Source: Escherichia coli (GTDB lineage: Bacteria > Pseudomonadota > Gammaproteobacteria > Enterobacterales > Enterobacteriaceae). From it: a stretch of DNA of 64,000 nt. Of the stretch, positions 1 to 6,000 are shown piece after piece. A program made the position numbers. The first letter of the stretch is position 1, and each line of letters opens with the position of its first letter. The stretch lies in NCBI RefSeq assembly GCF_029227855.1, contig NZ_CP074356.1; one strand, 5' to 3'.

Positions 1-3000
1 TTTTGCATATGTGCTACGGTTAAATCAGGAAAACGTGCCACTGACATCCACGTTTCTTCTAATTGTGCTGCATTATCCTCAATGAATCGCAGTCTCTTTA
101 TGTAATAAACCTGCTCACCAGTCACTAAATTCAGCTCAGTCGCAATAGGGGGAGAAGCATCCTGCACTTCAAATTTCATAATCTGACTTCCTGCCTCCTT
201 GCCGCTTTTATGCGCAATTTCACTGAAGCTGTTCATGTGATCAATGTGTGCAACAAAATTCTTTTTTTGAATATATGTTCCTGAACCATGCTTTCTATGA
301 ATAATTCCTTCGCCTTCCAGCAAGGATAATGCCTTACGCAGGGTATTACGCGAAACATTATAACGAACAGCGAGTTCAGCTTCTGACGGCAACAAATCAC
401 CAACATGCCATGAATAGCCATTGATCTCGGATTTAAGTAAGCGGGCAATCTTTTGAAAAATCACTTTTGCACCTTTTAAGAGCCATTGAAAACAAGGAGT
501 TGAGTCCTGATTGGTTTATCGTATGGCCGAGTCGTTTAATTATTACCCTGATGTTGAACAACTTTATTGCTGTATTACTGTGATCAATGTACCAGGACGT
601 ATAGCTACTGCGGGATATGATATTTACACAATGTAATCTGTTATATACCAGTAAGGGAAAATATGAAAAAGATATTGTTAGTTTGCGCTGCGGGCATGTC
701 AACCAGTATGCTGGTTAAACGTATGATTGATCATGCTAACGCTATTTCACTTGAAGTTAATATTTCCGCATTGGCGATTGCAGAGGCTAAAGGGAAAATT
801 AAAAATAACGAAGTTGACGTTGTTTTACTTGGCCCGCAAGTTCGCTTTCAGAAACCAGAGATTGAAGCTGTTGCACAGGGGAAAATGCCTGTAGCTGTTA
901 TCGAGATGAAAGACTATGGCACCATGAACGGACAGGCAGTTCTTGAATTTGCGATGAAACTACTGCAAGAGTAAGAATCTAATATTATTAAACTATTACC
1001 TGAACTAACTTTTCACACATCATAAAATGGATATGGCATACATGCTTTATTGGGATGTATAAATATCCAGAACAACAGGTATAAAAAAATGGGATTAATG
1101 ACCTCATTCGAACGTGGAATGGAACGTTTTCTTGTTCCAGTTGCTATCAAGTTAAACTCACAAAAACATGTTGCAGCGGTGAGAGATGGATTCGTTTTTA
1201 CGTTTCCAATTATCATGGCAAGCTCATTAATTATATTAATAAACTTTGCCATATTATCGCCAGACGGCTTTATTGCCGGACTGCTGCATCTGAACAGCGT
1301 TTTTCCCAACCTTGAAAAAGCACAAGCTATTTTTACTCCGGTAATGAATGGCTCTGTAAATATCATGTCAATTATGATTGCTTTCCTGGTCGCCAGAAAT
1401 ATGGCGATTAGCTATGAGCAAGATGATCTTTTATGCGGATTAACGGCAATAGGAGCATTTTTTATTGTTTATACGCCATATCAGATGATAGATGGGCAAG
1501 CATTCCTGACGACCAAATATCTCGGCGCACAGGGGTTGTTTGTTGCTGTTATCGTTGCATTAATCACCAGTGAAATATTTTGTCGCTTAGCTCGAAACCC
1601 AAAAATCACCATAACGATGCCGGCAGCTGTACCTCCTGCGGTATCGCGTTCATTTAAAGTTTTATTGCCAATATTTTTTGTCATGGTGTTCTTTTCCGCA
1701 CTTAATTATTGCCTGACACTGATATCCCCGGCAGGATTAAACGATCTCATTTACACATTAATCCAGACGCCGCTCAAACATATGGGAACGAATATCTTTG
1801 CGGTAATTATCCTGGGGGCTGTGGGTAATTTCCTGTGGGTGCTGGGGATCCACGGACCTAATACCACCTCGGCAATTCGAGAAACTGTTTTTTCTGAGGC
1901 TAATCTGGAGAATCTCTCCTGGGCCGCTCAACACGGCACTACCTGGGGCGCGCCATATCCGATTACCTGGACTTCTATTAATGATGCATTCGCCAACTGC
2001 GGCGGTTCAGGTATGACGTTGGGGTTATTGTTGGCTATTTTTATCGCGTCTAAGCGTGCGGAATACCGTGATCTGGCAAAAATGTCGTTTATCCCCGGTA
2101 TTTTCAATATCAATGAACCGATAATGTTCGGCCTTCCTATTGTACTTAACCCCATCATGATGGTGCCGTTTATTCTGGTTCCCATTGTTAACTGTGCCAT
2201 TGGTTACTTCTTTGTTTCGATGGAAATTATTCCACCGGTTGCTTATGCCGTGCCCTGGACTACGCCCGGACCTTTAATTGCTTTCCTCGGAACCGGGGGA
2301 AACTGGCTGGCGTTACTGGTGGGTTTTTTATGTTTAGGTGTGGCGACAATGATCTATTTACCTTTTGTTATTGCCGCCAACAAGGTCAATAACTTAACAA
2401 CTAACGGATAATCCCATTTACACAGGAAGGAGATGTTGATGTTTGCAGATGAAGAACTTGTTATGGAGTTACTGATCAACGCGGGACAGGCACGTTCTGA
2501 TGCGATGGAAGCCATACGTTGTGCCGGGCAAAAAGACTGGCAGGGCGCAACTCAGCTAATGGCCAGTTCGGAATTAGCCTGTCTTCAGGCACATAAAATT
2601 CAGACCGCGTTAATTAGTCAGGATGAAGGTTGTGGCAAAATAGTAGTTAATTTAATTCTGGTTCATGCACAGGATCATTTGATGAATGCAATATTATGCC
2701 AGGATTTAGCCAGGGAAATTATTTCATTAAGAAAAGAGCTCCATGCCTGATTTTTTCCTCCAGTGCGATAGCTGGAGGAAATTATTACACTCTTAAGGAT
2801 AAGTCATGAATATAAAGACGCTTAACGTCAGCCTTTTGTCTTTTTCTATTATTACAGCATTGTTTCCGTTGAACGCGTTGGCAACAAAATTAACCATTGA
2901 GCAGCGCCTTGAACTGCTTGAAAATGAATTGTCGCAAAATAAACAAGAGCTGAGAGCAACACAGAATGAACTGGGGGTATATAAATCCCGACTTTCGACC

Positions 3001-6000
3001 TTACAAAAAAGTATTACGGAAAATAAATACAAATCAGCCTCACTTGCTGAAATATCAGCGACATCTCCCGTCGCTGATAACATCAAAAATGAAAACGGTG
3101 AACAGAACTCGTCTGCCGCAGCGCATACTATAAATGGATCGCAGCAAGTTGCCGTTATTGAAAGTAAAGGCGACAAAACCACTATCGAAAGCGTGACCCT
3201 GAAAGATATCAGTAAATATATAAAGGATGATATTGGGTTCAGCTATCAGGGGTACTTCCGCTCAGGCTGGGGTACCGGAAATCATGGCTCACCACAAACT
3301 TATGCAGCGGGTTCTCTGGGACGTTTTGGTAACGAGATGAGCGGTTGGTTTGACTTAACCTTAAATCAGCGTGTTTATAATCAGGACGGTAAAACGGCAA
3401 ATGCGGTCGTTACCTATGATGGCAACGTAGGTGAGCAGTATAACGATGCCTGGTTTGGTGACAGTGCCAATGAAAATATCATGCAGTTCAGTGATATTTA
3501 TCTGACAACGCGAGGTTTTTTACCCTTCGCGCCAGAGGCAGACTTCTGGGTAGGCAAACATAAACTCCCGCAATATGAGATCCAAATGCTGGACTGGAAA
3601 ACCTTAACCACGGATGTCGCTGCGGGTGTGGGGATTGAAAACTGGGCACTTGGTGTAGGGCTGTTTGATATGTCCTTAAGCCGTGATGATGTCGATGTTT
3701 ACTCTCGTGATTTTACGCGTACCAGTCAGATGAATACCAATTCTGTGGATGTTCGTTATCGCAATATCCCGTTATGGGATGATGCAACATTATCATTAAT
3801 GGCTAAATATTCCGCACCAAATAAAACGGATCAACAACAAGATAATGAAAATGACGACAGTTATTTTGAAATGAAAGATAGCTGGATGCTGACTTCTGTT
3901 TTACGGCAAAACCTGCAACGCGATACGTTTAATGAATTTACGTTACAGGTTGCCAATAATTCCTATGCCAGCAGTTTTGCCAGTTTCTCAGATGCCAGTA
4001 ACACGATGGCGCATGGTCGCTATTACTATGGTGACCATACCAATGGGATCGCCTGGCGTTTAATCTCTCAGGGCGAGATGTATCTTACTGACAATATTAT
4101 TATGGCTAACGCGCTTGTCTATTCTCATGGCGAAGATGTTTATAGTTATGAAAGTGGCGCTCATAGTGATTTTGACAGTATTCGCACCGTAGTAAGACCG
4201 GCCTGGATCTGGAATACATGGAATCAGACGGGGCTTGAATTAGGCTGGTTTAAGCAACAGAACAAAACACAGCAGGGTGTAACACTAAATGAATCGGCTT
4301 ATAAAACGACACTCTGGCATGCATTGAAAGTGGGTGAAAGCATTTTAGGTTCACGACCAGAAATTCGCTTCTATGGAACGTATATCAATATTCTGGATAA
4401 CGAATTATCGAATTTTAAGTTTAATGAGAACAGCAAAGACGAGTTTATGGCCGGCATCCAGGCGGAAGTCTGATGGTAATCTATTTTAGTTAAGGAGTTG
4501 TGTATGTCAGGATTTAAAAAAGGTTTTTTATGGGGCGGCGCGGTAGCCGCGCATCAGTTGGAAGGTGGCTGGAATGAAGGAGGAAAAGGCATCAGTATCG
4601 CTGATGTGATGACTGCTGGCGCTCACGGTGTGCCGCGTGAAGTGACAGAAGGCGTTATCGACGGACTTAATTATCCCAATCATGAAGCAATTGATTTTTA
4701 TCATCGCTATAAAACAGATATTCAGTTATTTGCCGAGATGGGATTCAAATGCTTTCGAACTTCCATTGCCTGGACACGAATCTTTCCGCAAGGTGACGAA
4801 CAGGAGCCGAATGAAGAGGGTTTAAAATTTTATGATGATCTGTTCGATGAATGCCTGAAGCAGGGAATGGAACCTGTGGTGACGCTTTCGCATTTTGAGA
4901 TGCCTTATCATCTGGTGACAAAATATGGTGGCTGGCGAAACCGTAAACTGATCGACTTTTTCATCCGCTTCGCATCAACGGTCTTCACGCGCTATAAAGA
5001 AAAAGTAAAGTACTGGATGACGTTTAACGAAATCAATAATCAGGTGAATTTCAGCGAAAGCCTGTGTCCATTTACTAATTCCGGTATCTTGTATTCGCCA
5101 GAGGAAGATATCAATGAGCGCGAACAAATAATGTACCAGGCGGTACATTACGAGTTAGTTGCCAGTGCCCTGGCGGTACAGACTGGAAAATCGATCAATC
5201 CTGAATTTAATATCGGCTGTATGATCGCCATGTGCCCCATCTATCCTCTGACGTGTGCACCCAACGATATGATGATGGCCACGAAAGCGATGCATCGTCG
5301 TTACTGGTTTACTGATGTTCATGCGCGTGGATATTATCCGCAACATATGCTGAATTACTTTGCCAGGAAAGGATTCAACCTCGATATCACACCAGAAGAT
5401 AATGCGATTCTTGCCAGAGGTTGTGTCGACTTTATCGGCTTTAGCTACTACATGTCTTTTACGACACAATTTTCGCCAGATAACCCGCAACTGGATTATG
5501 TTGAGCCACGAGATTTGGTCAGCAACCCTTATATCGATACATCCGAATGGGGATGGCAAATTGATCCGGCAGGGCTACGTTATTCACTCAACTGGTTCTG
5601 GGATCATTTCCAGTTGCCGCTGTTTATTGTCGAAAATGGATTTGGTGCGGTTGACCAGAGACAAGTTGACGGCACGGTGAACGATCACTATCGCATTGAT
5701 TACTTTGCTTCCCATATTCGGGAAATGAAAAAAGCCGTAGTCGAAGATGGTGTTGACTTAATTGGCTACACCCCATGGGGCTGTATTGACCTGGTTTCTG
5801 CCGGAACAGGGGAAATGAAAAAGCGCTACGGAATGATTTACGTCGATAAAGACAACGAAGGGAAGGGAACGCTGGAACGAATACGTAAAGCGTCGTTTTA
5901 CTGGTATCGGGATCTCATCGCCAACAATGGCGAAAATATTTGAGACTTCAGGAAGATATTACGGAGATATCAGGCTCTGTGATCAGAGCCTGACAATAAC

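What the first reader, a model, noticed from the sequence alone, without database searches (positions are those of the whole stretch)
2806..4473. Glycoporin with an N-terminal coiled-coil extension
The porin carries a ~50-residue heptad-like segment ([40 protein letters not shown]) between the signal peptide and the LamB-type barrel, followed by a low-complexity linker. BglH and the sucrose porin ScrY have this architecture; its function is still unclear. A second such porin dedicated to a PTS operon is a tidy system to test what the extension does.
Basis: partly seen in the sequence, partly recalled or inferred. Interest (0 to 1): 0.35.

Follow-up and report, generated by a model that had tools for sequence, protein, structure and literature searches.

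The report
Known E. coli sugar porin, truncated allele
This gene is the already described outer-membrane sugar channel of the E. coli bgc beta-glucoside operon, it does carry the known coiled-coil "tail" of ScrY and BglH, and this strain's copy has a rare premature stop that removes the last two tryptophans.

Summary
The ORF at 2806-4473 (+) is real. It encodes a 555-aa LamB-family porin with a signal peptide (1-26). An uninterrupted heptad helix follows (about 28-76; Pfam Sugarporin_N, 29.2 bits against a cutoff of 25.7). Then come a predicted-disordered tether (77-131), a conserved short helix (132-143) and a barrel of roughly 18 strands. BglH (53% identical) and ScrY both match the same Pfam extension; LamB does not.

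The gene sits in a GntR-regulator / PTS IIB-IIC-IIA / porin / phospho-beta-glucosidase cluster between eamA and marB. This matches the published bgc operon (Neelakanta et al. 2009) and occurs in 2553 of 5426 complete E. coli genomes.

Two points were missed.
- The "low-complexity linker" contains conserved elements.
- The window's allele has TGG>TGA at codon 556. This deletes the terminal Trp-Trp found in every orthologue, including the equivalent of greasy-slide residue LamB W420. Only 1 of 2447 complete genomes has the identical 61-base stretch around this stop.

This copy is therefore a poor test system. What the extension does remains inferred from ScrY and DcaP work.

The parts
1..464 (-). 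5' part of the divergent GntR/UTRA-type regulator gene (bgcR), cut by the window edge
   Evidence: Pfam GntR 68.6 bits and UTRA 51.6 bits on the translation. The full 699-nt gene is annotated at the same place in strain JNEC-KY178.
663..974 (+). PTS EIIB, lactose/cellobiose family
   Evidence: PF02302, E=5.7e-19
1089..2411 (+). PTS EIIC, lactose/cellobiose family (the mechanical ORF starts at 1050; the RefSeq start corresponds to 1089)
   Evidence: PF02378, E=7.4e-46; TIGR00410, 338 bits; annotation
2433..2750 (+). PTS EIIA, lactose/cellobiose family
   Evidence: PF02255, E=5.2e-31
2754..2781 (+). Intergenic RNA hairpin (11-bp stem) between the EIIA stop and the porin start; no T-run follows it
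   Evidence: MFE -20.3 kcal/mol, z=-3.47, 0 of 200 shuffles fold as well. Not called as a terminator.
2806..2883 (+). Signal peptide of the porin (residues 1-26, predicted cleavage after A24-L-A26)
   Evidence: Read from the sequence; position conserved in orthologues. No signal-peptide predictor was available.
2887..3033 (+). Sugarporin_N heptad helix, residues 28-76 (about 6.5 heptads)
   Evidence: PF11471, 29.2 bits; AlphaFold2 helix 31-76, pLDDT 83-90; heptad and conservation statistics
3034..3198 (+). Predicted-disordered tether, residues 77-131. Contains the conserved motif S87-P-V-A-x-N-I-x-N-E-N-x-E99 (nt 3064-3102) and the block Q113-T131.
   Evidence: pLDDT below 50; per-column conservation in 110 orthologues
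3199..3234 (+). Conserved amphipathic pre-barrel helix, residues 132-143 ([12 protein letters not shown])
   Evidence: AlphaFold2 helix 132-143. Segment 132-146 averages 1.33 distinct residues per column, against 1.58 for the barrel. Present in BglH and in relatives without a coil, such as P0134.
3235..4470 (+). LamB-type beta-barrel of roughly 18 strands, residues 144-555
   Evidence: PF02264, E=1.8e-79; pLDDT above 90; Foldseek top hits maltoporin 1mpr/1mal and ScrY 1a0t; profile against PDB gives LamB 2e-116 and ScrY 2e-78
4471..4473 (+). Premature TGA stop (TGG in other strains; the changed base is 4473). Removes W556-W557. The ancestral TAA stop is at 4477-4479.
   Evidence: DNA alignment with strain E2865; orthologue alignment; allele count; exact protein found on 5 contigs
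4504..5943 (+). GH1 6-phospho-beta-glucosidase (bgcA)
   Evidence: PF00232, E=6.5e-130; NF007154, 1034.5 bits; annotation

Best explanation
Identity. The gene is the porin of the E. coli bgc beta-glucoside operon. I recall it being named bgcH in Neelakanta et al. 2009, a paper that could not be read here. It is a paralogue of the cryptic porin BglH.

Domain layout of the product:
- Sec signal peptide.
- Helix of about 46 residues in continuous heptad register (Sugarporin_N).
- Flexible tether of about 55 residues.
- Short conserved amphipathic helix.
- LamB-fold sugar channel.

Inferred mechanism:
- The barrels trimerise in the outer membrane.
- The three N-terminal helices zip into a parallel three-stranded coiled coil about 70 A long that hangs in the periplasm. 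This was reported for the ScrY N-terminal domain.
- The coil clamps the trimer and/or acts as a tethered low-affinity sugar sink. That sink would hand aryl-beta-glucosides and cellobiose on towards the PTS EIIC, which has no periplasmic binding protein.

This window's allele. A TGG>TGA mutation at codon 556 removes the C-terminal Trp-Trp. It thereby removes the counterpart of greasy-slide residue LamB W420 / ScrY W482 and the terminal aromatic residue. The channel in this strain is therefore probably impaired in assembly and/or sugar passage.

Shown here: identity, domain layout, helix and heptad signal, conservation, operon context, the nonsense allele.

Inferred: the trimeric coil, any role of the extension in transport, the phenotypic effect of the truncation.
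For: - Domains and fold.
- Paralogy to BglH, 53% identity over the full length including the extension. ScrY is 23% identical.
- Sugarporin_N is found in BglH and ScrY but not in LamB.
- Operon layout: PTS IIB/IIC/IIA, porin, GH1, divergent GntR regulator, between eamA and marB. This matches second-hand descriptions of the bgc operon.
- The gene is present in 2553 of 5426 complete E. coli genomes.
- Heptad statistics and the pattern of a/d/e/g conserved with b/c/f variable.
- Between the conserved RL..LE and YK motifs, BglH-type and BgcH-type coils differ by exactly one heptad (17 against 24 residues).
- Core d positions N45, T52, Y59 and N73 are invariant in a seven-sequence alignment spanning four genera. 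Across 110 orthologues N45 and Y59 stay invariant, while T52 shows 2 and N73 shows 3 residue types.
- Literature: the ScrY and DcaP periplasmic coils are trimeric. Proposed roles are trimer stabilisation and a substrate sink or guide.
- In a small survey, 8 of 9 coil-bearing relatives (counting BgcH, BglH and ScrY) sit next to PTS EII genes.
- Nonsense allele.
- The penultimate Trp is a greasy-slide residue in LamB and ScrY.
- The beta-signal lies in the final strand.
Against: - The trimeric parallel coil rests on homology to ScrY.
- The Pfam score of the extension is only just above threshold (29.2 against 25.7).
- The PTS association is confounded by phylogeny. It is also not exclusive: the extension-less porin P0160 and P0134 (which has no coil, only the pre-barrel helix) also sit in PTS operons.
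- DcaP electrophysiology suggested no role for its coil in transport or gating.
- The eight-residue beta-signal consensus (xxGxx-hydrophobic-x-hydrophobic = MAGIQAEV) is retained in the truncated allele. Assembly may therefore be only mildly affected.
- Low-level UGA read-through by tRNA-Trp would restore the wild-type end. This is my inference and was not tested.
- The primary bgc paper could not be read.
Confidence: 0.75

Rival explanations
1. The extension is purely structural. It is a trimer clamp or assembly aid that stabilises the oligomer, and it plays no part in sugar binding or hand-over.
For: For DcaP, the N-terminal coil was reported to stabilise the trimer, and electrophysiology suggested no role in transport or gating. 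ScrY and DcaP are described as 'stabilized by' trimeric coils. The conserved face of the helix is the a/d/e/g interface; the exposed b/c/f positions vary freely. That pattern would not be expected for a sugar-binding surface on the coil.
Against: LamB forms very stable trimers without any extension (one search shows that it has none). A disordered tether of about 55 residues between coil and barrel is a poor mechanical clamp. Conserved motifs in the tether suggest an additional function.
Confidence: 0.3
2. The functionally important part is the conserved pre-barrel helix (132-143). It would act as a periplasmic plug or gate of its own or a neighbouring pore, with the coil and tether controlling its position. 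This would resemble the FapF helical plug or the VhChiP N-plug.
For: Segment 132-146 is the most conserved stretch of the protein (1.33 distinct residues per column, against 1.58 for the barrel). It persists in relatives that have lost the coil, such as P0134. A plug helix directly preceding the barrel is described for FapF. An N-terminal plug is described for VhChiP (abstract listed).
Against: Model coordinates could not be inspected, so the position of the helix relative to the pore is unknown. Its pLDDT is only 54-76. No electrophysiological evidence of gating is known to me for BglH or ScrY.
Confidence: 0.1
3. In this strain the gene is effectively a decaying, non-functional copy, so the extension has no current role here.
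For: A nonsense codon removes W556-W557. The protein cluster also contains many shorter members of 405-533 aa. IS1 insertions interrupt the gene in two genomes. One paper counts the bgc operon among the cryptic beta-glucoside systems.
Against: Only two residues are lost, and the rest of the ORF and operon are intact. The same 555-aa allele occurs on 5 contigs, so it is carried by a lineage rather than being a one-off error. The xxGxxΦxΦ part of the beta-signal remains.
Confidence: 0.35
4. The coiled-coil call is an artefact: either the start codon is mis-placed, or the segment is a disordered low-complexity region.
For: The Pfam score is only marginally above threshold. The crude heptad window score was reached in 13 of 500 shuffles.
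Against: The signal peptide lies upstream of the segment and is conserved across genera. AlphaFold2 predicts a helix with pLDDT 83-90. The core positions are selectively conserved, and length variants differ by one heptad. BglH and ScrY score strongly against the same model.
Confidence: 0.02

Closest known systems
BglH (b3720), cryptic carbohydrate porin of the E. coli bglGFBH operon
   Same: 53% identical over the full length. Same order of elements: signal peptide, LT(V/I)EQRLELLE coil, tether, MTLKD.SK.VKD.IGF pre-barrel helix, LamB barrel ending in WW. Also encoded last-but-one or last in a PTS / phospho-beta-glucosidase operon.
   Different: The BgcH coil is longer. It has one extra heptad between the RL..LE and YK motifs (24 against 17 residues) plus about two more heptads after Y59. 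Its tether carries an insertion of about 20 residues ([14 protein letters not shown]...). Its PTS partner is a three-protein Lac/cellobiose-family system rather than the single BglF. The window allele lacks the terminal WW.
ScrY, sucrose porin of the scr regulon (PDB 1A0S/1A0T/1OH2)
   Same: Sugarporin_N plus LamB architecture and the same fold. Encoded next to a PTS EIIBC and a sugar-phosphate hydrolase. Its N-terminal domain is reported to be a trimeric coiled coil with a proposed 'extended sugar slide' or sink function.
   Different: Only 23% identical. The ScrY extension is about 70 residues with an alanine- and glutamine-rich core, a short linker and no BglH-type pre-barrel helix. The solved ScrY chains (413 aa) lack the extension.
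LamB maltoporin
   Same: Barrel family and fold. Counterparts of greasy-slide residues Y6 and Y41 are aromatic in BgcH (Y150, W181). The full-length allele has W556 aligned with W420.
   Different: LamB has no N-terminal extension. It feeds an ABC transporter that has a periplasmic binding protein. About 25% identical.
DcaP (Acinetobacter) and FapF (Pseudomonas) N-terminal periplasmic coiled coils
   Same: Trimeric outer-membrane barrels with an N-terminal coil of about 40-50 residues joined to the barrel by a flexible linker. The role is debated.
   Different: Their barrel families are unrelated (16-stranded porin-like; amyloid exporter), and no sequence relationship was detected here. The DcaP linker is about 10 residues, against about 55 here.

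Membership tests
LamB/sugar-porin family (Pfam PF02264) | Match to the LamB domain model above the curated threshold | tested here: met
   268.9 bits against a cutoff of 25.1, residues 147-555
LamB/sugar-porin family (Pfam PF02264) | 18-stranded beta-barrel fold like maltoporin and ScrY | tested here: met
   AlphaFold2 barrel with pLDDT above 90. Foldseek: 1mpr E=1.2e-24, 1mal, 1a0t. Sequence profile: LamB 2e-116, ScrY 2e-78.
LamB/sugar-porin family (Pfam PF02264) | Greasy-slide aromatic residues (LamB Y6, Y41, W74, F227, W358, W420) | tested here: inconclusive
   By alignment: Y6 aligns with Y150 and Y41 with W181. W74 falls near W216 and W358 near F456, both in loop regions where the alignment is uncertain. 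F227 aligns with L362. W420 aligns with W556, which is present in orthologues but deleted by the stop codon in this allele. Residue list taken.
LamB/sugar-porin family (Pfam PF02264) | C-terminal aromatic residue ending the last strand | tested here: not met
   The window protein ends ...QAEV. The 110 full-length (557-aa) orthologues examined end VWW, and the barrel-complete relatives, LamB, BglH and ScrY end WW or WF. Only 1 of 2447 complete genomes has the identical 61-base stretch around the stop.
LamB/sugar-porin family (Pfam PF02264) | Trimeric, sugar-saturable channel activity | not testable with these tools
   Requires purification and planar-bilayer titration.
Sugarporin_N-bearing glycoporins (Pfam PF11471; ScrY/BglH type) | Match to the Sugarporin_N model above threshold, located between the signal peptide and the barrel | tested here: met
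   29.2 bits against 25.7 at residues 30-56. The majority allele scores 31.5, BglH 45.6 and ScrY 40.7. The margin is small for this protein.
Sugarporin_N-bearing glycoporins (Pfam PF11471; ScrY/BglH type) | Continuous heptad pattern and helical conformation | tested here: met
   Register a=L35...I70, d=I31...N73. 76 of 20000 shuffles reach the same run. Conservation pattern p=0.007 and a one-heptad length difference between subtypes. AlphaFold2 helix 31-76.
Sugarporin_N-bearing glycoporins (Pfam PF11471; ScrY/BglH type) | Parallel three-stranded coiled coil in the periplasm | not testable with these tools
   Only monomer prediction was available, and model coordinates cannot be read. The property is reported for ScrY (cited).
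bgc beta-glucoside operon of E. coli (Neelakanta et al. 2009) | Five-gene operon (PTS IIB, IIC, IIA, porin, phospho-beta-glucosidase) with a GntR-type regulator | tested here: met
   Gene order and domains. Operon description taken second-hand. The primary paper is not held.
bgc beta-glucoside operon of E. coli (Neelakanta et al. 2009) | Confers cellobiose, arbutin and salicin utilisation (reported at low temperature) | not testable with these tools
   Phenotype quoted; needs growth assays.

The most novel reading that the evidence does not exclude
The extension of the BglH/BgcH subfamily may be a three-part tethered periplasmic device rather than only a ScrY-like coil:
- a length-quantised trimeric coil;
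- a conserved Asn/Glu-rich motif (SPVAxNIxNENxE);
- a near-invariant pre-barrel helix that gates or plugs the pore.

The device would couple channel opening or sugar hand-over to PTS-type uptake, which lacks a periplasmic binding protein.
Probability: 0.1. Interest if true: 0.5.

Novelty: already known. Interest (0 to 1): 0.15.

Why it matters
The extension is a curated Pfam family, and the gene belongs to an operon described in 2009. The finding therefore adds no new kind of system.

Its residual value is practical.
- No solved structure contains a Sugarporin_N extension; the solved ScrY chains lack it.
- Its role is still called unclear in the literature.
- BgcH and BglH form a natural pair that differ by whole heptads and by a tether insertion. 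They could be used to test length dependence.

Anyone doing that should use the common 557-aa allele. This strain's 555-aa allele lacks a greasy-slide tryptophan and the terminal aromatic residue.

Tried and rejected
- Single-sequence phmmer against PDB found no porin at all, only tropomyosin and a designed coil at E about 3. A family profile was needed to recover LamB and ScrY.
- The primary bgc paper could not be retrieved by PubMed id or PMC id. A first literature search on 'bgc operon' / 'bgcH' returned only unrelated hits.
- A profile of the extension alone against PDB gave only weak, coil-type matches. These were the proteasome Rpt5 N-terminus at E about 1e-3 and the YbgF/CpoB trimerisation coil at E=0.11. 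I read them as compositional similarity, not homology.
- The tether alone hit nothing meaningful in Pfam.
- My crude 28-residue heptad window score was only modestly better than shuffles (13 of 500). I replaced it with the spacing-7 run test and the conservation test.
- The idea that extension-bearing porins are specific to PTS operons was tested on 11 extra loci. The trend holds (8 of 9 against a mixed set). It is not exclusive, and the sample is small and phylogenetically biased.
- I considered a concatenated triple-coil AlphaFold run. I rejected it because the tool returns no coordinates, so parallel and antiparallel packing could not be told apart.
- The antisense ORF at 2793-3182 was not pursued. 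It lies wholly inside the conserved porin coding sequence.

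
Full report
**1. The observation**

The ORF at 2806-4473 (+) exists and encodes 555 aa. An AAGGA Shine-Dalgarno sequence lies 6 nt upstream of the ATG.

- Residues 1-26 read as a Sec signal peptide: Lys4, a hydrophobic core and an A24-L-A26 cleavage motif.
- Pfam places Sugarporin_N (PF11471, 'Maltoporin periplasmic N-terminal extension') at residues 30-56, with 29.2 bits against a cutoff of 25.7.
- Pfam places the LamB porin domain at 147-555 with E=1.8e-79.
- NCBIfam sees only sub-threshold similarity to maltoporin. The protein is therefore a family member but not LamB itself.

**2. Is the segment a coiled coil?**

From residue 28 to 73 the sequence keeps one heptad register.

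- a positions: L35, L42, L49, L56, L63, I70.
- d positions: I31, L38, N45, T52, Y59, L66, N73.
- A run of six L/I/V/M at spacing 7 was reached in 76 of 20000 shuffles of the 120-residue extension.

Conservation is more telling.

- In 110 orthologues of 75-99% identity, a/d positions carry 1.71 distinct residues on average, against 3.25 at other positions (permutation p=0.007).
- The conserved stripe is a/d/e/g, while b/c/f vary.
- Between the conserved RL..LE and YK motifs, family members fall into two length classes of 17 and 24 residues. They differ by exactly one heptad.

AlphaFold2, run with a 43-sequence alignment, predicts the following:

| Residues | Prediction | pLDDT |
|---|---|---|
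| 31-76 | single helix | about 83-90 |
| 75-132 | no structure | below 50 |
| 132-143 | second short helix | 54-76 |
| 144-555 | beta-barrel | above 90 |

The signal peptide precedes the coil and is conserved in Citrobacter, Salmonella and Kluyvera. The next Met is residue 178.

**3. What the protein is**

- The model's best structural matches are maltoporin (1mpr, 1mal) and ScrY (1a0t).
- A family profile finds LamB at 2e-116 and ScrY at 2e-78 in the PDB. Single-sequence searches had found nothing.
- The protein is 53% identical to E. coli K-12 BglH across its whole length, extension included.
- It is 23% identical to ScrY.
- BglH (45.6 bits) and ScrY (40.7 bits) both match Sugarporin_N. LamB does not.

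**4. The locus**

The gene is fourth in a cluster of PTS EIIB, EIIC and EIIA (lactose/cellobiose family), porin and GH1 6-phospho-beta-glucosidase. A divergent GntR/UTRA regulator is cut by the window edge.

- The region is 100% identical over the porin gene to E. coli JNEC-KY178. There the cluster lies between eamA and marB.
- This gene set is the bgc operon of Neelakanta, Sankar and Schnetz (2009). That work was cited and summarised in papers I could read.
- Those summaries describe five genes including PTS IIB, IIA, IIC and a phospho-beta-glucosidase, activated by BgcR. The operon is involved in cellobiose, arbutin and salicin use at low temperature.
- The primary paper is not held. The name bgcH for the porin rests on my recollection.
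- The porin gene is found in 2553 of 5426 complete E. coli genomes. Orthologues of about 80% identity occur in Citrobacter, Salmonella (many records subsp. salamae), Enterobacter and Kluyvera.

This is known, annotated biology.

**5.

The stretch between coil and barrel is predicted disordered and is rich in Ser, Ala and Asn. It is not featureless. Orthologues conserve three elements:

- a motif S87-P-V-A-x-N-I-x-N-E-N-x-E99, averaging 2.3 distinct residues per column against 5.4-5.7 in the flanks;
- a block Q113-T131;
- segment 132-146, containing the pre-barrel helix, at 1.33 distinct residues per column. This is lower than the barrel at 1.58.

The pre-barrel helix (consensus MTLKD.SKYVKDDIGF) is shared with BglH. 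It also occurs in relatives that have no coil, such as P0134, so it is an independent module.

Relative to BglH, BgcH has a longer coil and a tether insertion of about 20 residues. Extension length in the subfamily ranges from about 60 to about 140 residues.

**6.

Every 557-aa orthologue ends ...QAEVWW. The window protein ends ...QAEV.

- At the DNA level the only difference from strain E2865 in this region is TGG>TGA, with the changed base at window position 4473. The ancestral TAA follows two codons later.
- Only 1 of 2447 complete genomes with this region has the identical 61-mer.
- The exact 555-aa protein is nonetheless recorded on 5 contigs under several NCBI accessions. It is a real, rare lineage allele rather than a one-off error.
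- LamB's mature chain has 421 residues, and its greasy slide is Y6, Y41, W74, F227, W358 and W420. The ScrY equivalents include W482.
- W420 and W482 are the penultimate residues. They align with W556 of full-length BgcH.

The mutation therefore removes one greasy-slide tryptophan and the terminal aromatic residue. The beta-signal recognised by BAM lies in this last strand, but the xxGxxΦxΦ core (MAGIQAEV) is retained. I therefore expect impairment rather than certain loss. Rare UGA read-through by tRNA-Trp would recreate the wild-type end; this is my inference and was not tested.

Other signs of recurrent damage to this gene are IS1 insertions in two genomes and many shorter members in the protein cluster.

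**7. How it most likely works**

- Shown: a LamB-fold channel in a PTS beta-glucoside operon, with an N-terminal heptad helix on a long flexible tether.
- Inferred from ScrY and DcaP: the three helices of a porin trimer form a parallel coiled coil in the periplasm.
- 46 residues at about 1.5 A per residue gives about 70 A of coil.
- The d-position residues N45, T52 and N73 fit a trimer better than a dimer. This is my own reading of coiled-coil rules and was not tested.

The literature proposes trimer stabilisation, and a tethered low-affinity substrate sink or guide towards the inner-membrane transporter. It also states that the role is unclear.

A small context survey fits the sink idea but does not prove it.

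| Group | Protein(s) | Neighbouring transporter |
|---|---|---|
| Coil-bearing | BgcH, BglH, ScrY, P0126, P0129, P0130, P0132, P0133 | PTS EII genes |
| Coil-bearing | P0131 | none (orphan) |
| No coil | LamB | ABC |
| No coil | P0192 | ABC |
| No coil | P0165 | MFS |
| No coil | P0160 | PTS |
| No coil (pre-barrel helix only) | P0134 | PTS |
| No coil | P0153 | contig too short to tell |

The sample is small and phylogenetically biased.

Rivals are a purely structural clamp, a plug or gate role for the pre-barrel helix (by analogy with FapF and VhChiP), and functional decay in this strain.

**8. Verdict**

The proposed use as a 'tidy system' does not apply to this allele. Interest is low. The useful by-products are the nonsense allele, the conserved elements in the tether, and the heptad-quantised length differences between BgcH and BglH.

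Noticed in passing
window 4471-4473: TGG>TGA nonsense change at codon 556 of the porin removes the terminal Trp-Trp. This includes the equivalent of greasy-slide residue LamB W420. The identical 61-base stretch around the stop is found in only 1 of 2447 complete E. coli genomes, but the exact protein is on 5 database contigs.
   Followed up: yes
window 2754-2781: Stable RNA hairpin (11-bp stem, -20.3 kcal/mol, z=-3.5) in the 55-nt gap between the EIIA stop and the porin start. No T-run follows it. It could be a processing, stability or partial attenuation element within the operon.
   Followed up: partly
window 3064-3102 and 3142-3243 (residues 87-99 and 113-146): Conserved elements inside the supposedly low-complexity tether: the SPVAxNIxNENxE motif, the QQVAVI...IESVT block, and a near-invariant amphipathic helix directly before the first barrel strand. 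The helix is shared with BglH and with coil-less relatives.
   Followed up: partly
L011 7001-14855: A coil-less relative (P0134) sits with a sulfatase, a radical-SAM/SPASM maturase, a PTS EIIBC and a GH1 enzyme. This is a candidate cluster for using a sulfated beta-glucoside.
   Followed up: no
E. coli genomes NZ_CP032145.1 and NZ_CP139953.1 (hits H2, H3); proteins P0002-P0004, P0012: The porin gene is interrupted by IS1 in two complete genomes. Several database entries are porin-GH1 fusion ORFs of 630-749 aa, and the protein cluster holds many shorter members. The gene appears to be damaged repeatedly.
   Followed up: no
window 6000-9200: The bgc cluster abuts marB-marA-marR (minus strand), followed by marC and ydeA. 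In JNEC-KY178 it lies between eamA and marB.
   Followed up: partly
window 2793-3182 (-): A 129-aa antisense ORF (GTG start) lies entirely inside the porin's extension-coding region. It is probably spurious.
   Followed up: no
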